Origin: Escherichia coli
Lineage (GTDB): Bacteria > Pseudomonadota > Gammaproteobacteria > Enterobacterales > Enterobacteriaceae
Length of the DNA stretch: 64,000 nt
NCBI RefSeq assembly: GCF_003991155.1
Contig: NZ_CP031293.1
Reading direction: 5' to 3' (one strand)
The notes beneath the pieces are model-generated. The model worked only from the letters and a program-made list of their open reading frames with translations, had not been told where the DNA came from and did not search any database. Shown in pieces: positions 10,518 to 22,000 of the stretch; the first letter of the stretch is position 1, and every line of letters starts with the position of its first letter. The position numbers and the translations under genes are program-made.

Positions 10518-11288
10518 ATGTTACGTATTGCGGACAAAACGTTTGATTCACATCTGTTTACCGGCACAGGGAAATTCGCCTCTTCACAACTGATGATGGA
10601 GGCGATCCGCGCTTCCGGCAGCCAGCTGGTGACACTGGCGATGAAACGCGTCAACTTGCGCCAGCACAACGACGCTATCCTCGAACCGCTTATCGCGGCG
10701 GGTGTGACCCTGCTGCCAAATACATCCGGGGCGAAAACAGCGGAAGAAGCCATTTTCGCTGCCCATCTGGCTCGTGAAGCGTTAGGCACAAACTGGCTAA
10801 AATTAGAGATTCACCCTGACGCCCGCTGGCTGTTGCCCGATCCCATCGAAACCCTGAAAGCTGCCGAAACGCTGGTACAACAGGGATTTGTCGTGCTGCC
10901 TTACTGCGGGGCCGATCCGGTATTGTGTAAACGTATGGAAGAAGTCGGCTGTGCAGCGGTGATGCCGCTCGGCGCGCCGATTGGCTCGAATCAGGGACTG
11001 GAAACCCGTGCCATGCTGGAGATTATTATCCAGCAAGCCACGGTTCCGGTGGTTGTCGATGCTGGCATCGGCGTTCCCAGCCATGCCGCGCAGGCGCTGG
11101 AAATGGGGGCCGACGCGGTGTTAGTGAATACGGCGATTGCCGTCGCGGACGATCCCGTCAACATGGCGAAGGCATTTCGTCTGGCAGTAGAAGCAGGCCT
11201 GCTGGCACGTCAGTCCGGACCGGGCAGCCGCAGTCATTTTGCTCATGCCACCAGCCCGCTGACCGGATTTCTGGAGGCATCTGCATGA
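10518..11288 (+). CDS. thiG: Thiazole synthase ThiG
   Basis: 256-aa protein starting [20 protein letters not shown]; ATG 1 nt after the thiS stop. Confidence 0.95.
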
Positions 11289-12418
11289 AAACCTTCAGCG
11301 ATCGCTGGCGACAACTGGACTGGGACGACATCCGCCTGCGTATCAACGGCAAAACGGCTGCTGACGTAGAGCGGGCGCTAAATGCCTCGCAACTCACCCG
11401 CGACGACATGATGGCATTGCTATCACCCGCCGCCAGTGGCTATCTGGAACCACTGGCCCAGCGAGCGCAGCGTCTGACCCGTCAGCGATTTGGCAACACA
11501 GTTAGTTTCTACGTCCCGCTTTATCTTTCCAATCTTTGCGCTAACGACTGCACGTACTGCGGATTTTCCATGAGCAATCGCATCAAGCGCAAAACACTGG
11601 ATGAAGCGGATATTGCCAGGGAAAGCGCCGCTATACGGGAGATGGGCTTTGAACATCTGCTTTTAGTCACTGGTGAACATCAGGCGAAAGTGGGGATGGA
11701 TTACTTTCGTCGTCATCTCCCTGCCCTGCGTGAACAGTTCTCTTCACTACAGATGGAAGTGCAACCGCTGGCGGAGGCGGAATATGCCGAGCTAAAACAG
11801 CTGGGTCTCGATGGCGTGATGGTTTATCAGGAGACATATCACGAGGCGACTTATGCCCGCCATCATCTGAAAGGCAAAAAACAGGACTTCTTCTGGCGGC
11901 TGGAAACGCCGGATCGGCTGGGCCGTGCGGGGATTGATAAGATAGGCCTCGGCGCGCTAATTGGCCTTTCCGACAGCTGGCGCGTTGACTGCTATATGGT
12001 TGCAGAACATTTGCTATGGCTGCAACAGCATTACTGGCAAAGCCGCTACTCTGTCTCCTTCCCACGCCTGCGTCCATGTACTGGCGGCATTGAGCCTGCG
12101 TCGATTATGGATGAACGCCAGTTAGTGCAAACCATCTGCGCCTTCCGGCTGCTTGCACCGGAGATTGAACTGTCACTCTCCACGCGGGAATCACCGTGGT
12201 TTCGCGATCGCGTGATTCCGCTGGCAATTAATAACGTCAGCGCTTTTTCGAAAACGCAGCCAGGTGGCTATGCCGACAATCACCCCGAGCTGGAACAGTT
12301 CTCACCACACGACGATCGCAGGCCGGAAGCGGTTGCTGCCGCGTTAACCGCTCAGGGTTTGCAGCCGGTATGGAAAGACTGGGACAGCTATCTGGGACGC
12401 GCCTCGCAAAGGCCATGA
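11285..12418 (+). CDS. thiH: 2-iminoacetate synthase ThiH (radical SAM tyrosine lyase)
   Basis: 377-aa ORF with the radical-SAM motif [10 protein letters not shown]; overlaps the thiG stop (ATGA). Confidence 0.96.
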
Positions 12419-12530
12419 GACAGAATGTAAGAACGTAAATTTATTCCGAGCCGCTACGGAAGATGAAAAACGCAAGGTTGTTGAAAGCGTTGTGTTTTTT
12501 TATGGTAGTGCCGTCAGCAGGAATGTTGTC

Positions 12531-12563
12531 CAGGGCGAAAAGCTTCTTCCTCGTTTCGCCCTG
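12531..12563 (+). terminator. Stem-loop (10-bp stem) downstream of thiH; candidate terminator or island-boundary structure
   Basis: CAGGGCGAAA-13 nt-TTTCGCCCTG perfect inverted repeat followed by CCTTTCTT. Confidence 0.35.
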
Positions 12564-12735
12564 CCTTTCTTAAAATAACGTCTCAGTACGCTATTTCATG
12601 ATTGCCCGCAAAAATATTCATTAATATTTCTATTGTTTTAACAAAGAAGGCACAAGGCTTTAATTGCAAAGCAAGATCGCCGTCAAAACAAGAGTGTGCA
12701 ATAACCGGTTATAATAATTCCACCCTCACCAAAAT

Positions 12736-13386
12736 ATGGTCCAGAACATCATGTCAGCTTACCTAAAAAAAGCGTTATCGATTCATAGTGATGAATTTCG
12801 CCCATACGGAAACGTAATTTCTGCAATAAATGTAGATTCATTGCTTAAATACCTTAAAGAGGAAATTTCTGTACCTGAGGATCAGGTGGCATATGTCAGA
12901 AGCGATGAGCGCTTAAAGCAATACCCCGCCGTGAGCGACATTCAGCGCCAAATCTACGGTGGAATGCCCGTTCAGGCTGGGTACGTTTGTGGGGTAAATA
13001 CCACCCAGGATGGCTTTGAATATCACCAGGGAAGTGAAGTCATTATCGCCGCCAGCGATTTTTTCCTGTTTTTAGGTAAACGAGAGTTGATGCAGGGTGA
13101 CACGTTTAATGGTGAACGTGCAGAGCCGTTTTTCATTCCGGCAAAATCGGTGATTGAACTTTATAGCACAACGCTACATTACTGCCCTATGAGTATCAAT
13201 GCACAACCTTTTAGTGCAGCGATTATTCTTCTTGATGGAACTAATGAAGATATTGATGGCAAGAATAAACCAACAATATTAAGCAAGCGAAATACCTGGT
13301 TTATCGCCCATGAAAGTTTCACTGAGCATCCTTGCCCATTATTAAAAGGGCCGCATCTTTGCGTGAATGATATTATTCATGGGTGA
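12736..13386 (+). CDS. Cupin-like protein of unknown function (ureidoglycolate-lyase-like N-terminal motif; possibly DUF4867-type)
   Basis: 216-aa ORF with no K-12 counterpart at this locus; AT-rich codon usage; motif EFRPYGNVI resembles the AllA-family N-terminus; alternative start at MSAYLKK (12751). Confidence 0.6.
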   Translation: MVQNIMSAYLKKALSIHSDEFRPYGNVISAINVDSLLKYLKEEISVPEDQVAYVRSDERLKQYPAVSDIQRQIYGGMPVQAGYVCGVNTTQDGFEYHQGSEVIIAASDFFLFLGKRELMQGDTFNGERAEPFFIPAKSVIELYSTTLHYCPMSINAQPFSAAIILLDGTNEDIDGKNKPTILSKRNTWFIAHESFTEHPCPLLKGPHLCVNDIIHG

Positions 13387-13390
13387 AAAT

Positions 13391-13410
13391 GGCGAAGATT
13401 TCTCTTCGCC
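13391..13410. terminator. Shared hairpin between convergent island genes
   Basis: GGCGAAGA-TTTC-TCTTCGCC perfect stem-loop in the 30-bp gap between the cupin-like gene stop (13386) and the hydrolase-like gene stop (13417). Confidence 0.5.
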
Positions 13411-13416
13411 TGTTCT

Positions 13417-16071
13417 TTACCCGGCAATTACCGCCACGCTGTCTTTTGTTCGCACGCGTGGTGGCATGGTCAGACCGCAGCGATCCCACTCATTCCCCTG
13501 CCATGCACTCGCAAAATAATAATGATTCGCTGCCGATGGGTAGACCACGACCGCCAGTTCATTACGCTTTTTTAGTAAAGACTGTGGCAAGGTGAAACGA
13601 TATTCCGGCCAGCCCTTTTCGGCAATTAACGTATCGTTAAGCCAGATAGCAACGCTTCCCTGCACTTGCGGTAAATAAAGCTCAATATCGTCGGTAATCG
13701 TCTCCAGCGCAAAGCGTAACTGATAATGTCCCGGACCACACCACGTCTCCATCCCCTGCTGCTCCCACCCTTTTGTTACCTCAACGGGTCGGGAAACGTT
13801 ATCAACCAGCAGTTGCCAGTGCTTATCCAGCACCACCTCGTGGCGACTTTCCACTACCTGCAATGAAAAGCAACGGGCCTGCCAGGGCTCGATTTGTAGC
13901 GGATAACTTCCCGTGAGATGCTCTTCCAGCACTGAAACCTCTCCCGTTGCAAGATGCCACTCCGACAACTGCCCACTGAGGCCCGGAAAATGTAGCCAGC
14001 CGTAGAGCGGGGTATCTCCGTCGTTAAATACGCTGACGTAACGCGATGTTTCATCCTGGGTAATTCGCGTCCAGACGGCAGTTTTCCGGGAGGGATAGTC
14101 AACAAAGGGGTGATCGTTTTTCAGCGTGTCGGCTAACGTGCTGCACTGCGGTTGCGCCTCAATCAGTTTTTGCAGCCTTTCGGTGAGAGAACGATCTTCA
14201 CCTTTTTCCTCGCTATATGCCGCAAGCTCGCCGGCGATCAGAAGCTGGCCACCAGCGGCGACAAAGTGCTCCAGTTGGCTCAGCGTGGCGGCTGATTTCA
14301 CCACCTTAACGTCCGCTAACAGAAGCGCAGGGAAATTCATGCCGTTAATGCGCGTTCCATCAGCCTGGAGCAAATTCTCTTCATCAATAAAGAAATATTC
14401 AAATCCCTGAGCGCTGAGTTGTTTTGCCCAATATTCGCCTGACTGCCCTTCGTTGCCATCCACGCCACAGTGCCAGAAAGTCCGTTTGGGATAGAGTACG
14501 CCAACATCAACGTACGGCTCTCCCTGCTCAAGAAATTCGGCAAGGCGACCAGATTCCTGAGCAAACCCAGCGTGGAAGGCGTACCAGGGCTGGAAGTTAA
14601 CGCCCGGCGCAAAATCAAAACGCGGGTTACTTAATACGTCGTCATTTGCCTCGCCATCCGTCAGCCAGAACGCGTGCATCAAAAATTGCCGCGCACCGAG
14701 GAGGTGATGGCGCAATGCCTGCAACCGGATGTCATGCAGTGAAATTTCCCACTGCCCGGCAGCAAAATGTGTGCATGGCTTCACCCGCGCATAATATTGC
14801 TCAACAATGCACCCTTTACGCCCATGAGCGCGCGCCACAGAGTCGCCAACCTTCGCCGCCATCTGCGGCTCGCTATTTCGCGAATCGACAGCCGTAATAT
14901 CCCGCCAGCCATCGAGAGCAAAGTAATCCATAGCAAAATTACACCGGTTATCTTCGGTGATGATTTTACTGGCGAAATTCCAGCTACTAACGTGACCTAA
15001 TACTTCATGACCACTTAGCTGTATTCCCCGCTGGTGCGCCCATTCTGACAACGTACCAAAAAAGGCCTGCATCGCCTGGCTGGAATAACAGGAAAGCAGC
15101 TCACAGCGCCGACGTGCGGTACGACTGCCAATGTCCATAACTAACGACATCAGGTTTTCTGCCAGGCAGTAAGGTGCCTGTTGCAATGCATCAACAAACC
15201 TTTTTTCATACATTAAGGAGGATTTGACCGCGCCAGTATGTTCATTCCATTGCCAGAAACAGGCGTGTGGCTGGTCGAAAAAGAGATACGCCACCGTCTT
15301 ACCAAAATGATCGCCAAAAGCGCGGGCGTAAGGTTCATAGCCGACACGAATAAAATTTTCTGCCGCTTCGGGCATCAGGTAATTAATCATCCGTGAGGTC
15401 AAGCAACGCGCCGCGGCAAAGAGCGTCACTACCGTTTCCGCACCCCAGGGCAGGTCGCTTCCCGTAAAGGTGACCTCAAATTCCTCTGTGGTTGCTTTGG
15501 TGATGCGGGCCAATGAAGAAACATCAACAATTTCATCTGCATTGCACTCCCCTGATGAAGAGGTGGCATACGCTGCGACAATTTCCCATTCATCCCACGC
15601 CGGTTTACCGCCAGCAAAAATCCACTCCATTCCACACTGCTGTAGCGCCTGCGCATCCGCAGAGCGGATCCCGGAAAGGTGACATGTCAGTACATCTGCA
15701 GACCGGCTGGACTGGCTCCAGAAAAGATGGCGCTCACGCAGCTCATCTCTCCCTTCAACGGTCCTTCCCCCGGCGTGCCCGGAAAGCCAGTTGTAATCAT
15801 CGTAGATGCCCATCATCAGCCCAATATTGGCAGCTTTATCAGCCGTGTAGCGACAGGCTGCCAGCCACTCCTCACTGAGATAACTCTCCAGCGGAAGACT
15901 CAGACGTGCGGCTATCTGAAATGAACCATACCCTCCCGCCTGCAGTTGCCTCAGTTGGCTGTCGATCTGCTTTTTGTCCGGAATGGTATGCCAGAACCAG
16001 TAGGTTGCAGGCAGGTGCCATACATCAGGATTTTTAAAGTTTTGGCGTGCCTGTGCTAACGAATCATTCAT
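13417..16071 (-). CDS. Large cytoplasmic hydrolase-like protein (putative glycoside hydrolase, family unassigned)
   Basis: Track ORF 13417..16104; start chosen at MNDSLAQARQ (ATG at 16071) because of the AGGGGGAAAGCC RBS 6 nt upstream; 884 aa; no signal peptide; C-terminal region looks beta-sandwich/carbohydrate-binding-like; no K-12 homolog recalled. Confidence 0.75.
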   Translation of the reverse strand: MNDSLAQARQNFKNPDVWHLPATYWFWHTIPDKKQIDSQLRQLQAGGYGSFQIAARLSLPLESYLSEEWLAACRYTADKAANIGLMMGIYDDYNWLSGHAGGRTVEGRDELRERHLFWSQSSRSADVLTCHLSGIRSADAQALQQCGMEWIFAGGKPAWDEWEIVAAYATSSSGECNADEIVDVSSLARITKATTEEFEVTFTGSDLPWGAETVVTLFAAARCLTSRMINYLMPEAAENFIRVGYEPYARAFGDHFGKTVAYLFFDQPHACFWQWNEHTGAVKSSLMYEKRFVDALQQAPYCLAENLMSLVMDIGSRTARRRCELLSCYSSQAMQAFFGTLSEWAHQRGIQLSGHEVLGHVSSWNFASKIITEDNRCNFAMDYFALDGWRDITAVDSRNSEPQMAAKVGDSVARAHGRKGCIVEQYYARVKPCTHFAAGQWEISLHDIRLQALRHHLLGARQFLMHAFWLTDGEANDDVLSNPRFDFAPGVNFQPWYAFHAGFAQESGRLAEFLEQGEPYVDVGVLYPKRTFWHCGVDGNEGQSGEYWAKQLSAQGFEYFFIDEENLLQADGTRINGMNFPALLLADVKVVKSAATLSQLEHFVAAGGQLLIAGELAAYSEEKGEDRSLTERLQKLIEAQPQCSTLADTLKNDHPFVDYPSRKTAVWTRITQDETSRYVSVFNDGDTPLYGWLHFPGLSGQLSEWHLATGEVSVLEEHLTGSYPLQIEPWQARCFSLQVVESRHEVVLDKHWQLLVDNVSRPVEVTKGWEQQGMETWCGPGHYQLRFALETITDDIELYLPQVQGSVAIWLNDTLIAEKGWPEYRFTLPQSLLKKRNELAVVVYPSAANHYYFASAWQGNEWDRCGLTMPPRVRTKDSVAVIAG

Positions 16072-17563
16072 GGCTTTCCCCCTTCTTAATCGGCGGAACA
16101 TCACAATGACAAATGTATGTCAAAATGGCATACAGCGCCGCGCCCACCAGCATCGCCACCACTACGCCAATATTTGCTGTCGCAAACACGCTGGTTTTGG
16201 TTTCTGCCGTCAGTAAGAAGCCGACCAGGTGAGCAATCCACGGATCGCCTGAGGTGATGGTTCCCATGCCGATAACCGATGCAACAAACAGCGATAATAA
16301 TGCCGTCCAGCGACCGTTACGCCCGCCAAGCCCCGCGGGCTGCGCCATATCAGTGTTCCAGTGCAAGCGTTTTTGCCGGGCAAAGTCGACAAGCTGGATT
16401 GCGCCCATCGATCCCAATACGACGGATACCGTTGCCAGAAAAGACTGAAAGGTTGCGAGGAACGAGTCAGAAACAAACAATAAGTAGAAGGCACCGAATG
16501 CGATAATGACCGCATTGATAGCAGTGGTGGTTGAACGACTGGCTGGAACGCCCATTGCCAGCAATGCGAGGCCTGAGCTGTAAACACCTGTAATGGCTGC
16601 CGCCAGCAGGGAGATGATGATCACGATTGAAAACGGCACATAGAACCAAAACGGCAGGAACGAGGTTAAGGCCGCAATCGGTTCGGACGCTGCTGCTCCG
16701 CTCAGTTCCGGGTTACTGTCGGCCAGCAGGGCACCTAAAATCAGCAGGATGGAAACCGGAAGCGAAATCCCAAGCGACGTCCAGAAAATCACTTTCCCGG
16801 CAGCGGTTTTGCGCGGCAGGTAACGGGCGAAATCACCGCCATAGTTGAGAAAGCCCAGCCCAACCATCGTCATTGCCATCACCATGCCGCCGATAAACGT
16901 TAAAAATCCGGCATCGGGAGCAGCACCCGCCTGCGACCAGTGAATATGTGGCAGGATCAGGATAATAAAGATGATGCTCATTCCGCCCGTTAACCATGCA
17001 ATATACTTTTCTACCTTCATGATGAGCTGGTGGCCGTAGATGGCAACGGACATAGTCAATACTAAGGTCACCACGAACCAGCCCAACAGGCACCCTAAGG
17101 TAGGGTGACCGTTTTCTGCTGCAAATACGGTTGGCCATAACCGGGCAAAGAGGGCGGCGCCAGTGGTCGAGGACAACGTAATAATGGTGATTTTCCAGCC
17201 CATATTGGAAATATAGGCAAATAAAGTGGGGATCTTATTCCCATGATAACCAAAGGCAAATCGGGTCTGCGTTAAGGTAGGCAGCCCGGTGCGTGGCCCA
17301 CCAACGGCCAGAACCCCCACCAGCGTGCTGGATAAAAAATAGCCCACGACACCGGCAACAATCGCCTGCCAGAGGCTTAACCCCAGTGAGTAAACATAAA
17401 TCCCATAGGTAATACCGAGGATGGATACATTCCATGAAAACCAGATCGGGAAAAGTCCGGCAGGCGAACCATAACGTTCGTTATCACTAACCGGGTTTAC
17501 CCCATTGGTTTCCACCTTCATCGTACCTGAAACATCAGATGGGTTCTGGGCTTGGCTCGTCAT
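16064..17563 (-). CDS. NCS1-family (nucleobase/nucleoside/vitamin:cation symporter) permease
   Basis: Start set at MTSQAQNPSD after a GAGAGGAAAT RBS within the longer track ORF; about 499 aa, highly hydrophobic with multiple predicted TM helices; resembles purine-cytosine/allantoin/hydantoin permeases. Confidence 0.8.
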   Translation of the reverse strand: MTSQAQNPSDVSGTMKVETNGVNPVSDNERYGSPAGLFPIWFSWNVSILGITYGIYVYSLGLSLWQAIVAGVVGYFLSSTLVGVLAVGGPRTGLPTLTQTRFAFGYHGNKIPTLFAYISNMGWKITIITLSSTTGAALFARLWPTVFAAENGHPTLGCLLGWFVVTLVLTMSVAIYGHQLIMKVEKYIAWLTGGMSIIFIILILPHIHWSQAGAAPDAGFLTFIGGMVMAMTMVGLGFLNYGGDFARYLPRKTAAGKVIFWTSLGISLPVSILLILGALLADSNPELSGAAASEPIAALTSFLPFWFYVPFSIVIIISLLAAAITGVYSSGLALLAMGVPASRSTTTAINAVIIAFGAFYLLFVSDSFLATFQSFLATVSVVLGSMGAIQLVDFARQKRLHWNTDMAQPAGLGGRNGRWTALLSLFVASVIGMGTITSGDPWIAHLVGFLLTAETKTSVFATANIGVVVAMLVGAALYAILTYICHCDVPPIKKGESHE

Positions 17564-17564
17564 T

Positions 17565-18782
17565 TTATTTCCTCTCATATTGAGCAAGACGTGATAGTAC
17601 GGCTTCATACTCAGGCATGTTCGATGCGCCTTCCCGCTCGACCGCCAGAGAAGCAAACGCAGAGGCAAATTTTGCTGCACTGAGCAACGGCTGGCCCTGC
17701 GCAATCGCCGCAGCAAACGCACCGTTAAACGCATCCCCCGCACCGGTGGTGTCAATACTTACTGCTTTTAACGCTGGAATATGGGTAAATTGTTCACCGT
17801 CATAAATCAGCGCCCCTTGAGAACCCATCGTAATAATGATGTTTTTTGCCCCCAGGGATTTTATGGTTTGCGCCGCTTCTTTCGCACTCTCGATATCATT
17901 AATCTCGACACCGGACATCAGCGACGCTTCTGTTTCATTCGGTGTCAGATAATCAACATATTGCAGGCATTCTTTTGCCTGGTCAGAATAAGGGGCTGGG
18001 TTAAGGATAGTTTTCACGCCCGACCGATGTGCCATATTTAGTGCCAGCGTGGTTGCTTCAAAGTTATTTTCCAACTGTGTCAAAAATATTTTGGCGTCCG
18101 TCAACTCACCCGCAATACTGGCAACTTCCGCTTCAGTGATATATTGATTGGCGCCAGAATAAATCGCGATCTTGTTTTCACCAGCAGGCTCCGAAACATA
18201 TATTATGGCGCTTCCTGTTTTATGCTCTTCGTCCTGGTAGAGGGTAAAGCTGCGGATATCGGATGAAGAGAGATGATCATGCGCCATCTGGCCGAAATGG
18301 TCGTTGCCAACTTTGCCGACGAAGTGTACCTGGACGGGACATTTGCTGGCTGCCATCGCCTGGTTTGCGCCCTTGCCGCCAGGTCCAATGATGGTATTGC
18401 TGGCAAGAATTGATTCGCCGCTTTTAGGGAAGCGATCAACTTTGGCAATAATATCGACATTAAAAGATCCTAATATACAAACTTTGCTTATCATTATTTT
18501 CCCTTTTTTGTTTGTCATCGAGTTTTTTCGCCAGTTGACCTGATTGAGGAACTTTTCAATAGAGGTACCAACGTTATTAACGGGCTGAGAATGGAAAATC
18601 CGACGCAATATTATTGCTCCGCCGTGACAACGCTCAACACCCCCTTGCTCCGCTAATAAATTTAAATCATTACGGATCGTTTCTTTACTGACAGAGAATA
18701 AGATGGCGAGTTGATTAACCGTAGCCCGCTCATGTTTATTCAAATATGCCAATATTTGACGTTGTCTTTCTTTCCCAAACAT
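17565..18782 (-). CDS. DeoR-type HTH domain fused to a ribokinase/PfkB-family carbohydrate kinase domain
   Basis: 405-aa ORF; N-terminal about 60 aa ERQRQILAYLNKHERATVNQLAILFSVSKETIRNDLNLLAEQGGVERCHGGAI is a DeoR-family HTH; C-terminal about 305 aa carries PfkB motifs GPGGKGANQA and DTTGAGDAFNGAF; GAGGTG RBS; stop 1 nt before the permease ATG. Confidence 0.8.
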   Translation of the reverse strand: MFGKERQRQILAYLNKHERATVNQLAILFSVSKETIRNDLNLLAEQGGVERCHGGAIILRRIFHSQPVNNVGTSIEKFLNQVNWRKNSMTNKKGKIMISKVCILGSFNVDIIAKVDRFPKSGESILASNTIIGPGGKGANQAMAASKCPVQVHFVGKVGNDHFGQMAHDHLSSSDIRSFTLYQDEEHKTGSAIIYVSEPAGENKIAIYSGANQYITEAEVASIAGELTDAKIFLTQLENNFEATTLALNMAHRSGVKTILNPAPYSDQAKECLQYVDYLTPNETEASLMSGVEINDIESAKEAAQTIKSLGAKNIIITMGSQGALIYDGEQFTHIPALKAVSIDTTGAGDAFNGAFAAAIAQGQPLLSAAKFASAFASLAVEREGASNMPEYEAVLSRLAQYERK

Positions 18783-18987
18783 GATTTCACCTCACGTAAC
18801 ATTTATATCTTTTGTAATTTTCTGATTCCATGAATCCTTTCACACTACCATCACGAAAACAAAAACAAACGGGAATTTTTGGAGGAAAGGTTTTTTTATT
18901 CAATGGGATAGTGAGAGGGGAATGTTGTTTTGAAAAAACACTCCCGAAAAATGCGTGGGAAAGCGCTTTCAATCGTAAACGGAATGC

Positions 18988-19019
18988 AAAAAAAAGCCAG
19001 TCAGTGTGACCTGACTGGC
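18988..19019 (-). terminator. rpoC rho-independent terminator
   Basis: GCCAGTCAG-GTCACA-CTGACTGGC hairpin followed by a T8 run on the minus strand, 20 nt downstream of the rpoC stop. Confidence 0.85.
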
Positions 19020-19039
19020 TTATTTCTTAAGAAGAGCGA

Positions 19040-22000
19040 TTACTCGTTATCAGAACCGCCCAGACCTGCGTTCAGCAGTTCTGCCAGGCTGGCAGATGCG
19101 TCTTCTGCAGTCACCTGCGGTGCAGCCGGAGCTTCACCCGCAGCACGGCGACGCATACGATCCTGGTGGTACGCGTAACCGGTACCTGCCGGGATCAGAC
19201 GACCCACGATAACGTTCTCTTTCAGGCCGCGCAGTTCGTCGCGTTTGCCCGCAACGGCTGCTTCGGTCAGCACGCGAGTGGTCTCCTGGAACGATGCCGC
19301 GGAGATGAAGGACTCGGTTGCCAGAGACGCTTTGGTGATACCCAGCAGATCGCGGGAGTAAGTTGCACCCACTTTGCCGTTCGCTTCCAGTTCGCGGTTT
19401 GCGATCTTGACGCGAGAGTATTCAACCTGTTCACCTTCCAGGAAGTCGGAGCTGCCCGCGTTAACGATGGTAGCTTTACGCAGCATCTGACGAACGATAA
19501 CTTCGATGTGTTTATCGTTAATCTTAACGCCCTGCAGACGGTATACGTCCTGTACTTCGTTAACGATGTAACGAGTCACAGCATGAACACCACGCAGACG
19601 CAGAATGTCGTGCGGCGCTTCCGGACCGTCGGAAATTACGTCACCACGTTCTACACGTTCACCTTCGAACACGTTGAGTTGACGCCATTTCGGAATCATC
19701 TCTTCGTACGGATCGCTACCGTCTACCGGGGTGATAACCAGACGACGTTTACCTTTGGTTTCTTTACCGAAGGAAACGATACCGCTGATTTCAGCCAGGA
19801 TTGCCGGCTCTTTCGGACGACGTGCTTCGAACAGGTCCGCAACGCGCGGCAGACCACCGGTGATGTCCTTGGTACCGCCGGATTCCTGCGGAATACGCGC
19901 CAGGGTGTCACCAGAGCTGATCTGTACGCCATCTTCCAGCTGAACAATCGCTTTACCCGGCAGGAAGTACTGCGCAGGCATATCGGTACCCGGGATCAGA
20001 ACATCGTTACCCTGAGCATCAACGATTTTCAGCGCCGGACGCAGATCTTTACCACCTGCGGTACGTTCTGCGGAATCCAGAACCACCAGCGAAGACAGAC
20101 CGGTCAATTCGTCGGTCTGACGAGTAATGGTCTGGCCGTCGATCATGTCAGTAAAGCGTACAAAACCGCTTACTTCGGTGATAACCGGCATGGTGTGCGG
20201 GTCCCAGTTTGCAACGGTTTCGCCGCCAGCAACCTGTTCGCCATCGCCTTTCGCCAGTACCGCACCGTAAGGTACTTTGTAGCTTTCTTTGGTACGACCG
20301 AATTCGTCGATCAGTTTCAGTTCGGTGTTACGGGAAGTGATAACCAGTTTACCGCTGGAGTTCACAACCGACTTCACGTTGCTGAGCTTGATGCTACCTT
20401 TGTTTTTCACCTGGATGCTGGATTCAGCAGCCGCACGAGATGCCGCACCACCGATGTGGAACGTACGCATGGTCAGCTGTGTACCCGGTTCACCGATGGA
20501 CTGTGCCGCGATAACACCGATTGCTTCACCTTTGTTGATGAGGTGGCCACGCGCCAGGTCACGACCGTAGCAGTGCGCACATACACCAAAGTCGGTGTCA
20601 CAAGATACAACAGAACGTACTTTAACCGCGTCGACAGAGTTCTCTTCCAGCAGGTCACACCACTGTTCGTGCAGCAGCGTGTTGCGCGGAACGAGGATAT
20701 CAGCAGTACCCGGCTTCAGAACGTCTTCAGCAGTTACACGACCCAATACGCGATCGCGCAGCGGCTCTTTAACGTCACCACCCTCGATAACCGGAGTCAT
20801 CATGATACCTTCATGGGTACCACAATCGTCTTCGGTAACCACCAGGTCCTGCGCCACGTCAACCAGACGACGAGTCAGGTAACCGGAGTTCGCAGTTTTC
20901 AGTGCGGTATCCGCCAGACCTTTACGAGCACCGTGGGTGGAGATGAAGTACTGGAGTACGTTCAGACCTTCACGGAAGTTCGCGGTGATTGGCGTTTCGA
21001 TGATGGAGCCATCCGGCTTCGCCATCAGACCACGCATACCAGCAAGCTGACGAATCTGTGCCGCAGAACCACGCGCACCGGAGTCGGCCATCATGTAGAT
21101 GCTGTTGAAGGAAACCTGCTTCTCTTCCTGACCGTCACGGTTAATAACGGTTTCAGTTTGCAGGTTATCCATCATCGCTTTGGATACACGATCGTTCGCC
21201 GCAGCCCAGATATCGATAACTTTGTTGTAGCGTTCGCCCGCAGTTACCAGACCAGACTGGAACTGCTCCTGAATTTCAGCAACTTCTGCTTCTGCCTCGG
21301 AGATGATTTCGTGTTTCTTCTCCGGGATGACCATGTCATCGATACCAACAGATGCACCAGAACGCGCTGCATAGGCGAAGCCGGTGTACATGATCTGGTC
21401 CGCAAAAATAACGGTCGGTTTCAGACCGAGAATGCGGTAGCAGGTGTTCAGCATTTTGGAGATTGCTTTCTTACCCAGCGCCTGGTTGACGATGGAGTAA
21501 GGCAGACCTTTCGGTACAATCATCCACAGAATGGCACGGCCAACGGTCGTATCTTTCAGGCTGGTTTTCGCTACTAATTCACCGTTAGCATCTTTTTCAT
21601 ACTCGGTGATACGCACTTTAACGCGCGCATGCAGAGAAGCCAGACCAGAGCGATACAGACGTTCTGCTTCTTTCGGGCCAGTCAGCACCATGCCTTCGCC
21701 TTTGGCGTTAACACAGTCGCGGGTCATGTAGTACAGACCCAGTACAACGTCCTGAGACGGAACGATGATTGGTTCGCCGTTCGCCGGGGACAGGATGTTG
21801 TTGGTAGACATCATCAGCGCACGCGCTTCCAGCTGGGCTTCCAGCGTCAGCGGTACGTGAACAGCCATCTGGTCACCATCGAAGTCGGCGTTATATGCCG
21901 CACAAACCAGCGGGTGCAGCTGGATAGCTTTACCTTCGATCAGTACCGGTTCAAATGCCTGGATACCCAGACGGTGCAGAGTCGGTGCACGGTTCAGCAG

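What the first reader, a model, noticed from the sequence alone, without database searches (positions are those of the whole stretch)
12736..13410. Cupin-like ORF convergent with the island operon, sharing a bidirectional hairpin
The 216-aa ORF is AT-rich, lacks a strong RBS at either candidate start, and carries an N-terminal motif (FRPYGNVI) reminiscent of ureidoglycolate-lyase-type cupins. It ends 30 bp from the stop of the 884-aa gene, and the gap is occupied by a perfect 8-bp stem hairpin (GGCGAAGA/TCTTCGCC) that could terminate both convergent transcripts. Whether it belongs functionally to the same module is open.
Basis: partly seen in the sequence, partly recalled or inferred. Interest (0 to 1): 0.4.

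Follow-up and report, generated by a model that had tools for sequence, protein, structure and literature searches.

The report
Orphan cupin gene joins sugar-salvage island
The ORF is a real gene for a metal-binding cupin protein of the still-unexplained DUF4867 family, and comparison with other bacteria shows it is an optional fourth member of a small horizontally acquired permease, glycosidase and ribokinase module; this is ordinary in kind but gives a testable clue to the family's function.

Summary
An ORF at 12736-13386 (+) is AT-rich (42% GC), has no Shine-Dalgarno sequence, and ends 30 bp from a convergent 884-aa gene. The gap holds a perfect 8-bp/4-nt-loop hairpin (13391-13410).

It lies in a 6.46-kb island (12576-19036) between thiH and rpoC, present in 49 of 5426 complete E. 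coli genomes. The other genes are a DeoR-HTH::ribokinase, a divergent NCS1 permease and a cytoplasmic GH106-like glycosidase.

The open question is answered. In Serratia fonticola and two unassigned metagenome lineages, DUF4867 is the last gene of the same operon, co-directional and translationally coupled. In Escherichia and Salmonella it is inverted. It is optional: only 2 of 80 other species carrying the glycosidase have it.

The hairpin stem is invariant in five taxa. It fits a terminator well on the + strand and only marginally on the − strand.

The biochemical role is unknown. My best guess is a sugar ring or anomer isomerase feeding the ribokinase.

The parts
12576..19036 (.). 6.46-kb accessory island between thiH and rpoC. 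It carries four genes and is present in 49 of 5426 complete E. coli genomes. Other strains have yjaZ/htrC or an empty site here.
   Evidence: Alignment with an empty-site strain (L002) breaks at 12575 and resumes at 19037.
12531..12563 (+). Core-genome hairpin downstream of thiH (CAGGGCGAAA/TTTCGCCCTG). It probably acts as the thi-operon terminator and insulates the DUF4867 gene from thiH read-through.
   Evidence: Inverted repeat I1. It lies in the part shared with empty-site strains.
12659..12689 (+). Conserved upstream block (CTTTAATTGCAAAGCAAGATCGCCGTCAAAA), containing the small palindrome TTGC-AAA-GCAA. It is a candidate regulator or activator site for the DUF4867 promoter.
   Evidence: It is mostly invariant in E. 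coli, Escherichia sp. MOD1, E. whittamii and Salmonella (core TTTAATTGCAAAGCAAG invariant), while the flanks diverge and carry indels. It is largely conserved in L092.
12710..12715 (+). -10-like hexamer TATAAT with no good -35. It is the putative own promoter of the inverted DUF4867 gene.
   Evidence: Read from the sequence. It is TATAAT in three Escherichia, CAAAAT in Salmonella and TAAAAT in L092. The consensus scan did not call it. This is an inference.
12736..12750 (+). Five-codon N-terminal extension of the mechanical ORF, probably not translated.
   Evidence: ATG 12736 is not conserved in the orthologues. RefSeq starts the gene at 12751.
12751..13386 (+). DUF4867-family cupin gene, 211 aa (WP_015674803.1). 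Predicted 2His-2Glu metal site at E90, H92, E96 and H143.
13391..13410 (.). Perfect 8-bp stem, 4-nt loop hairpin in the 30-nt gap between the two convergent stop codons. It is a candidate shared intrinsic terminator.
   Evidence: All 16 stem positions are invariant in 5 taxa, while 4 of the 14 other gap positions vary.
13417..16071 (-). 884-aa cytoplasmic GH106-like glycosidase of an uncharacterised family; last gene of the operon.
   Evidence: No Pfam or NCBIfam hit. AlphaFold model pLDDT 88.6. Best PDB folds are the GH106 rhamnosidases 6q2f and 5mqm, E 2.6e-39 and 1.6e-35 at 13-14% identity, followed by GH42 enzymes. 437 homologues were found.
16064..17563 (-). 499-aa divergent NCS1-family permease. 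Its end overlaps the glycosidase start by 8 nt.
   Evidence: PF02133, E 5.8e-27. TIGR00800 scores 88.8 bits, far below its 353 cut-off. The orthologue is called as 499 aa in Salmonella.
17565..18782 (-). 405-aa fusion of a DeoR-type HTH domain (residues 6-59) with a ribokinase (residues 100-395); first gene of the operon.
   Evidence: PF08220 plus PF00294. TIGR02152 ribokinase equivalog scores 313.5 against a cut-off of 299.65. Best PDB hits are all ribokinases, E 1.5e-54.
18783..19036 (-). Operon upstream region. It includes about 90 nt just before the start codon that are nearly identical in Escherichia, Salmonella and L092. It also includes the island's own hairpin after rpoC (18990-19025).

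Best explanation
What is shown. The ORF, with its true start at ATG 12751 (211 aa), encodes a DUF4867-family cupin with an intact 2His-2Glu metal site. It is an optional, lineage-specific fourth component of a horizontally acquired module. The other three parts are a DeoR-HTH::ribokinase fusion, a divergent NCS1 permease and a cytoplasmic GH106-like glycosidase.

Inferred pathway. The permease imports a ribose-containing glycoside of unknown identity. The glycosidase releases the sugar. The kinase domain makes ribose 5-phosphate, and its HTH domain controls the operon. DUF4867 acts on the released sugar.

Inferred role of DUF4867. Most likely it is a metal-dependent ring-opening, anomer or pyranose-furanose isomerase that hands the kinase the form it accepts, a role analogous to RbsD in the rbs operon.

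Inferred history. In the ancestral arrangement DUF4867 was the translationally coupled last gene of the operon. In the Escherichia/Salmonella version it has been inverted. There it has lost its Shine-Dalgarno sequence and become AT-rich. It has gained its own upstream region with a conserved block. It now faces the glycosidase gene across a 30-nt gap.

Inferred hairpin function. The conserved hairpin in that gap ends the DUF4867 transcript. Less efficiently, it may also end the operon transcript.
For: Family membership.
- Pfam DUF4867 at 183 bits against a 28.7 cut-off.
- The EYHxxSE and TTLH ligand columns are invariant.
- The gene is under purifying selection, dN/dS 0.13-0.22. It is intact and at least 99.8% identical in all 49 E. 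coli carriers.

Module membership.
- The same four genes, convergent with a 30-nt gap, occur in Salmonella, E. whittamii, Escherichia sp. MOD1 and L092.
- In Serratia fonticola L005, in L008/L009 and in L094/L095, DUF4867 directly follows the GH106-like gene on the same strand. The junction is an 11-nt gap or a 4- or 8-nt overlap, with a GGAG-type SD. These loci sit in different genomic neighbourhoods.
- These DUF4867 proteins form one clade of 8 among 153 family representatives (NJ bootstrap 68.5%). Relatives outside the clade sit in other sugar contexts: PTS, ribulose-phosphate epimerase, RpiB, SIS, PFK.

Kinase identity. It passes the ribokinase equivalog cut-off, and its best PDB hits are ribokinases with the GGKGANQA and DTTGAGD motifs conserved.

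Proposed role. PMC11968277 finds DUF4867 genes mostly beside sugar kinases and isomerases and reports kinase-DUF4867 fusions. It proposes a mutarotase or ring-isomerase role.

Hairpin.
Against: - No activity has ever been shown for any DUF4867 protein. PMC11968277 tested mutarotation of sulfoquinovose and sulfofructose, ligand binding by nanoDSF, and kinase activity, all with negative results.
- The module works without DUF4867 in most lineages. Only 2 of 80 species loci with the glycosidase carry it, and Superficieibacter has the other three genes alone.
- The substrate is unknown. The GH106-like fold does not reveal specificity, and NCS1 substrates are not known to include simple glycosides.
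- No operator motif shared by the two upstream regions was found, so co-regulation is unproven.
- The missing SD and low GC could mean weak expression.
- The - strand U-tract is only 4 U, and the scan did not call it.
- Clade support is moderate, so independent recruitment of DUF4867 cannot be excluded.
Confidence: 0.6

Rival explanations
1. DUF4867 is a lyase or hydrolase like its distant relative ureidoglycolate lyase (AllA). It would act on the aglycone or on a ureido or hemiaminal product of the imported compound rather than on the sugar. This would fit an NCS1 permease, whose family carries allantoin, hydantoins and pyrimidines.
Against: There is no HMMER-level similarity to AllA or to the Pfam lyase family at E <= 10. 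AllA ranks 48th, behind dozens of unrelated cupins. DUF4867 genes elsewhere sit with sugar kinases, isomerases and PTS components, not with ureide genes (PMC11968277). The permease is very far from characterised NCS1 members (88.8 bits against a 353 cut-off).
Confidence: 0.12
2. DUF4867 is a metal-dependent aldose-ketose isomerase or epimerase, like the cupin-type phosphoglucose and lyxose isomerases. It would convert the sugar released by the glycosidase into the kinase's true substrate.
For: Cupin-type phosphoglucose isomerases (1x7n, 1j3p) and the epimerase SnoN are among the top non-family Foldseek hits. A His/Glu metal site of this kind is typical of cupin sugar isomerases (my own knowledge). 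The family associates with ketose metabolism (PMC11968277).
Against: Those fold matches are weak (E about 1e-5, TM 0.33-0.40) and no better than many other cupins. The kinase looks like a plain ribokinase, which needs no prior isomerisation. In the sulfoglycolysis clusters a separate isomerase already exists (PMC11968277).
Confidence: 0.15
3. The gene is an unrelated neighbour or a decaying passenger. Adjacency in E. coli would be an accident of island assembly, and the hairpin merely the operon's terminator.
For: The gene differs from the operon in composition (42% against 52-53% GC for the glycosidase and permease genes) and has no SD. It is on the opposite strand. It is absent from most modules with the glycosidase and from Superficieibacter. 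Its dN/dS is the highest of the four genes.
Against: It is coupled co-directionally to the glycosidase gene in three further lineages at other genomic sites. dN/dS of 0.13-0.22 is well below 1. Its dS is similar to that of the operon genes, so it has travelled with the island. The metal ligands are invariant. Superficieibacter has a different terminator after the glycosidase gene, so this hairpin is specific to the convergent layout.
Confidence: 0.06

Closest known systems
SftX / SqvB (also written SqvD), the DUF4867 proteins of sulfoquinovose (sulfo-SFT) gene clusters; crystal structure 9GYY/9GYZ from Bacillus megaterium (PMC11968277)
   Different: The cluster is different: GH106-like glycosidase, NCS1 permease and ribokinase, rather than GH31 sulfoquinovosidase, isomerase and transaldolase. 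The host is a Gammaproteobacterium. The gene is inverted, with its own upstream region. This context was not among the context classes named in the main text of that paper (supplementary tables not checked).
Ureidoglycolate lyase AllA (PF04115; 1YQC, 2BDR)
   Same: Cupin fold. It is reported as the closest characterised structural relative of DUF4867.
RbsD (D-ribose pyranase) and FucU-type mutarotases
   Same: The proposed role is the same: a small accessory enzyme in a sugar uptake and kinase operon that supplies the kinase with the correct ring form. Like DUF4867, it is dispensable.
   Different: The fold is unrelated and RbsD uses no metal. The analogy is functional only and is untested.
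GH106 alpha-L-rhamnosidases (BT_0986, 5MQM; Novosphingobium rhamnosidase, 6Q2F), for the neighbouring 884-aa gene
   Same: Best structural match over the whole multidomain architecture (Foldseek E 1e-35 to 1e-39).
   Different: Identity is 13-14% and TM only about 0.5. The E. coli protein does not match the Pfam GH106 model. It is cytoplasmic, and it is paired with an NCS1 permease and a ribokinase rather than rhamnose genes.
Bidirectional intrinsic terminators between convergent genes
   Same: A GC-rich hairpin in a short gap between two stop codons, flanked by an A-tract on one side and a T-rich tract on the other.
   Different: Both U-tracts are short or interrupted (UGUUCUUU and AUUUUC). 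No termination data exist.

Membership tests
DUF4867 (Pfam PF16161 / InterPro IPR032358) | Match to the family HMM above the curated cut-off | tested here: met
   183.1 bits against a cut-off of 28.7, E 5.9e-54, covering profile positions 3-186 of 201.
DUF4867 (Pfam PF16161 / InterPro IPR032358) | Cupin beta-barrel fold like the only solved member (9GYY) | tested here: met
DUF4867 (Pfam PF16161 / InterPro IPR032358) | 2His-2Glu metal site (Glu97, His99, Glu103, His150 of B. megaterium SqvB, PMC11968277) | tested here: met
   The aligned residues are E90, H92, E96 and H143 in 211-aa numbering. They are invariant in all 11 aligned homologues.
DUF4867 (Pfam PF16161 / InterPro IPR032358) | Actual metal binding and homodimer formation | not testable with these tools
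   This needs purified protein (ICP, SEC-MALLS).
Ureidoglycolate lyase (AllA, PF04115) | Sequence match to the family model or to solved members | tested here: not met
   No Pfam hit other than DUF4867 at E <= 10, apart from a chance DUF2949 match. A profile of 11 DUF4867 sequences finds only 9gyy in the PDB at E <= 10.
Ureidoglycolate lyase (AllA, PF04115) | Closest structural neighbour | tested here: inconclusive
Intrinsic terminator, bidirectional | Stable GC-rich stem-loop directly after the stop codon(s) | tested here: met
   8 bp with 5 G-C pairs and a 4-nt loop, -11.6 and -12.5 kcal/mol. Context z-scores are -5.0 and -5.7.
Intrinsic terminator, bidirectional | U-rich tract after the stem on the + strand (DUF4867 transcript) | tested here: met
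   The scan calls the site, with the tail TGTTCTTTAC.
Intrinsic terminator, bidirectional | U-rich tract after the stem on the - strand (operon transcript) | tested here: inconclusive
   The tail is ATTTTCACCC, with only 4 U. The scan did not call it. The A-tract is 4 of 5 conserved across taxa.
Intrinsic terminator, bidirectional | Transcript 3' ends at the hairpin in vivo | not testable with these tools
   This needs Term-seq or 3' RACE.
Four-gene module (HTH-ribokinase / NCS1 / GH106-like / DUF4867) | DUF4867 adjacent to the 3' end of the GH106-like gene in independent lineages and genomic sites | tested here: met
   Convergent layout: E. coli, Salmonella L003/L004, L010, L011, L092. Co-directional and coupled layout: L005, L008, L009, L094, L095.
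Four-gene module (HTH-ribokinase / NCS1 / GH106-like / DUF4867) | Co-regulation through a shared operator or co-induction | tested here: inconclusive
   No convincing motif is shared by the two upstream regions. No expression data are available.
GH106 (for the 884-aa neighbour) | Match to Pfam PF17132 | tested here: not met
   The E. coli protein matches no Pfam family. Only 'faint' precomputed PF17132 hits appear in some homologues.
GH106 (for the 884-aa neighbour) | Overall fold | tested here: met
   Foldseek E 2.6e-39 (6q2f) and 1.6e-35 (5mqm), TM about 0.5.
Ribokinase (for the kinase domain) | NCBIfam equivalog TIGR02152 above its cut-off | tested here: met
   313.5 bits against 299.65. 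The second ribokinase model, NF008353, is below its cut-off (277.8 against 341).

The most novel reading that the evidence does not exclude
The island would encode an undescribed salvage pathway for a ribose-containing glycoside. A divergent NCS1 transporter imports the compound. A new GH106-like glycosidase family, widespread in Actinobacteria, Bifidobacterium, Succinivibrionaceae and rhizobia, cleaves it. DUF4867 then acts as a dedicated metal-dependent ribose ring or anomer isomerase that feeds a regulator-fused ribokinase. That would give the first biochemical function for the DUF4867 family (about 1100 clusters at 50% identity), and in a genetically tractable E. coli background.
Probability: 0.25. 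Interest if true: 0.6.

Novelty: new member of a known kind. Interest (0 to 1): 0.38.

Why it matters
DUF4867 is a family of roughly 1100 50%-identity clusters. It has a crystal structure but no known activity. The 2025 structural paper tested several hypotheses on sulfosugars without success.

This island places a DUF4867 member next to a bona fide ribokinase and a glycosidase in natural E. coli isolates. That points to a simple, commercially available candidate substrate, D-ribose and its ring forms. It also offers a genetic system (IAI39, CE10) in which to test the idea.

The analysis also flags a conserved, uncharacterised NCS1-plus-GH106-like gene pair that spans several phyla.

Otherwise the finding is ordinary. 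It is a small accessory island in a minor E. coli lineage, with a typical convergent-gene hairpin.

Tried and rejected
1. Shared operator. I searched for a motif common to the DUF4867 upstream region and the operon upstream region using k-mers and 12-mers with up to 2 mismatches. A DeoR-like TGTT...AACA palindrome occurs upstream of the E. coli operon and upstream of the Salmonella DUF4867 gene, but it is not conserved across taxa. Rejected as evidence of co-regulation.

2. Rfam scan of 12300-19200 at E <= 1. The only match was a chance Thr_leader hit (25.7 bits against 55) on the rpoC terminator. There is no known RNA element.

3. Sequence link to AllA. No match by Pfam at E <= 10 or by a family-profile search of the PDB.

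4. Repeated element. The hairpin could have been a REP-like repeat, but it occurs only once in the window.

5. The 216-aa start. Rejected in favour of 211 aa.

6. Literature. Searches for the module (GH106/ribokinase/permease; NCS1/ribokinase/riboside) and for the thiH-rpoC island found nothing relevant.

7. Rhizobium context of the glycosidase. It sits with a molybdenum oxidoreductase, XdhC, a GH63-like gene and an ABC transporter. This gave no clue to the substrate.

8. Look-up of the E. albertii protein P0002 found no contig on record.

Full report
**Where the window comes from**

The window is an E. coli chromosome. The 12300-19300 stretch searched is 100% identical to strain 2016C-3878, and 12500-13500 also to IAI39 and CE10. 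It covers zraSR-hupA-hemE-thiCEFSGH on one side and rpoC/rpoB on the other.

Between thiH and rpoC lies a 6461-bp insert, 12576-19036. It replaces 79 bp found in "empty-site" strains. In most strains the site holds yjaZ/htrC instead. Only 49 of 5426 complete genomes carry the insert. All 49 have the whole insert, and their DUF4867 gene is intact and at least 99.8% identical.

**The observation**

- The ORF is at 12736-13386 (216 aa) and contains FRPYGNVI.
- The gap to the convergent stop codon is 30 nt. The perfect 8-bp/4-nt-loop hairpin is at 13391-13410.
- The hairpin is not a chance feature. No shuffle of the local 56 nt folds as well (z -5.0 and -5.7). The motif is unique in the window.
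- The gene is 42.3% GC (GC3 38.7%). The adjacent glycosidase and permease genes are 52-53%.
- There is no Shine-Dalgarno pairing: 0 and -2.2 kcal/mol, against -6.0 to -10.8 for the three operon genes.

One correction is needed. ATG 12736 is not conserved in orthologues, while ACATCATG around 12751 is invariant. RefSeq uses 12751. The product is therefore 211 aa.

**What the gene is**

It is an unambiguous DUF4867 member.
- Pfam gives 183 bits.
- The only related solved structure is the B. megaterium DUF4867 protein 9GYY/9GYZ (E 7e-34).
- The four metal ligands reported for that structure are Glu97, His99, Glu103 and His150 (PMC11968277). They align to E90, H92, E96 and H143, and are invariant in 11 homologues down to 35% identity.
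- dN/dS against four orthologues is 0.13-0.22, so the gene is under purifying selection. That is weaker than for its neighbours at 0.03-0.12.

That paper, and one from 2026, still list DUF4867 as having unknown function. The 2025 authors tested mutarotation, ligand binding and kinase activity on sulfosugars, all with negative results.

**The neighbours**

The convergent operon has three tightly packed genes.
- The first is a DeoR-HTH domain fused to a kinase. The kinase passes the ribokinase equivalog cut-off, and its best PDB matches are all ribokinases, with the sugar and catalytic motifs conserved.
- The second is a very divergent NCS1 permease.
- The third is an 884-aa protein with no family hit. 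Its confident model (pLDDT 88.6) is most like the GH106 alpha-L-rhamnosidases, at 13-14% identity, and then GH42 enzymes. It has no signal peptide, by reading of the sequence.

**Does the cupin belong to the module?**

Yes, as an optional part.

From the cupin side:
- The closest relatives in a 5.8-billion-protein collection are 81-90% identical. They come from E. albertii, Escherichia sp. MOD1, an unnamed enterobacterium (L092) and Salmonella serovar Westminster.
- The next closest are 43-46% identical, from Serratia fonticola and metagenomes.
- The loci examined for the 81-89% relatives (Salmonella, L092, Escherichia sp. MOD1) and E. whittamii have the same four genes, with the same convergent layout and 30-nt gap, at the same thiH-rpoC site. 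The E. albertii locus could not be retrieved.
- In Serratia (L005), in L008/L009, and in a further lineage found by exhaustive profile search (P0136; L094/L095), the order is glycosidase then DUF4867 (preceded by kinase and permease in L005 and L008; the L009, L094 and L095 contigs start within the glycosidase gene). They are on one strand and at other chromosomal places. The junction is an 11-nt gap or a 4- or 8-nt overlap, with a good SD.
- These proteins form a clade of 8 among 153 family representatives (NJ bootstrap 68.5%).
- Relatives just outside that clade sit in unrelated sugar clusters.

From the glycosidase side, I examined 80 species loci carrying a homologue.
- 32 have a permease at least 55% identical, and in 27 of these it lies directly upstream on the same strand.
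- 19 have a PfkB kinase.
- Only 2 have DUF4867, and both are Escherichia.
- Actinobacteria use PfkB + LacI + NCS1 + glycosidase.
- Superficieibacter has the three enterobacterial genes without the cupin.

So the permease-glycosidase pair is the core. The kinase is frequent. DUF4867 is an add-on restricted to Gammaproteobacteria (Serratia and two unassigned metagenome lineages besides Escherichia/Salmonella), and it was later inverted in the Escherichia/Salmonella form.

After inversion the gene became AT-rich. It is 41-42% GC, against 52-53% in the co-directional forms. It also lost its SD. It acquired an upstream region with a mostly invariant roughly 30-nt block (12659-12689) and a TATAAT at 12710-12715 that lacks a -35. 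Those promoter assignments are inference.

**The hairpin**

All 16 stem positions are identical in five taxa whose island genes differ at dS 0.25-0.78. By contrast, 4 of the 14 other gap positions vary. This argues for selection on the stem, although no compensatory change is available to prove pairing.

On the + strand it meets the terminator consensus. On the - strand only four U follow the stem, and the scan does not call it. Superficieibacter, which lacks the cupin, has a different terminator after the glycosidase gene. The conserved hairpin is therefore specific to the convergent layout.

I consider it a terminator for the cupin transcript and a weaker one for the operon. This is untested.

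**Mechanism**

Shown: family, fold, ligand conservation, purifying selection, and module linkage.

Inferred: the module imports a ribose-bearing glycoside, cleaves it in the cytoplasm and phosphorylates the ribose. DUF4867 acts on the freed sugar, most likely as a ring or anomer isomerase serving the kinase.

That role matches three published points: the family's general association with sugar kinases and isomerases, the existence of kinase-DUF4867 fusions, and the proposal in PMC11968277. I give the specific role about 0.3. I give membership in the DUF4867 family and in the module about 0.9.

Rivals are a lyase acting on the aglycone, an aldose-ketose isomerase, and an unrelated passenger gene. 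The last is largely refuted.

**Verdict**

This is a new member of a known but functionally unassigned family, in a gene context not named in the main text of the published family survey. It is of moderate interest, mainly because it yields a concrete hypothesis, testable in E. coli, for an open DUF.

Noticed in passing
window 11285-12418 (thiH) versus 12751-18782 (island genes); L003, L092: Between E. coli and Salmonella the island genes have dS 0.41-0.64, whereas flanking thiH is saturated (dS above 3 or not computable). The island is much younger than the species split yet sits at the same thiH-rpoC site in both genera. This implies horizontal exchange into a shared hotspot, perhaps by flank recombination.
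   Followed up: partly
window 12576-19036: The thiH-rpoC interval has three alleles in E. coli: yjaZ/htrC (most strains), an empty site of about 240 bp, and this island (49 genomes). The island brings its own hairpin after rpoC (18990-19025), which differs from the one in empty-site strains.
   Followed up: partly
window 16064-17563; L001 17565-19064: RefSeq for IAI39 splits the permease into a 'hypothetical protein' and a 'cytosine permease'. Yet the IAI39 DNA translates to the same uninterrupted ORF as the window (100% over 563 codons). Strain 2016C-3878 has one 'purine-cytosine permease family protein'. This looks like an annotation artefact rather than a frameshift.
   Followed up: partly
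L013-L089 (genome loci): Across phyla the NCS1 permease is more conserved (57-73% identity to E. coli) than the glycosidase it accompanies (35-47%). The pair also occurs alone, for example in Succinatimonas. Rhizobial homologues of the glycosidase have no NCS1 and sit with a molybdenum oxidoreductase, XdhC, a GH63-like gene and an ABC transporter.
   Followed up: partly
L092 7829-8456; L012 5690-6317: The unnamed enterobacterium L092 has two extra genes, PTS IIB and PTS IIA (101 and 105 aa), between thiH and the DUF4867 gene. Superficieibacter, which lacks DUF4867, has two ORFs of the same sizes just beyond the glycosidase gene.
   Followed up: no
window 12701-12712 and 18959-18970: Two perfect 12-bp palindromes were seen. 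ATAACCGGTTAT overlaps the putative -10 of the DUF4867 gene. In E. whittamii it reads ATATCAGGATAT, so both arms have changed in a complementary way. GAAAGCGCTTTC lies upstream of the operon and is partly conserved in other taxa. Both are possible protein-binding sites; neither was tested.
   Followed up: partly
window 18783-18875: About 90 nt directly upstream of the kinase start codon are almost identical in Escherichia, Salmonella and L092, while the DNA further upstream diverges. The motifs TTCCGTTTAC and TTCCCGTTTGT recur there, and TTCCGTTT also appears upstream of the Serratia-type operons. This is a candidate promoter, operator or leader. It has no Rfam match.
   Followed up: partly
window 17565-18782 and 12751-13386: The two genes at the island's edges, the kinase (46% GC) and DUF4867 (42% GC), are AT-richer than the two inner genes (52-53% GC), as are both upstream regions (38-40% GC). 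This pattern is often associated with xenogeneic silencing. That is inference only.
   Followed up: no
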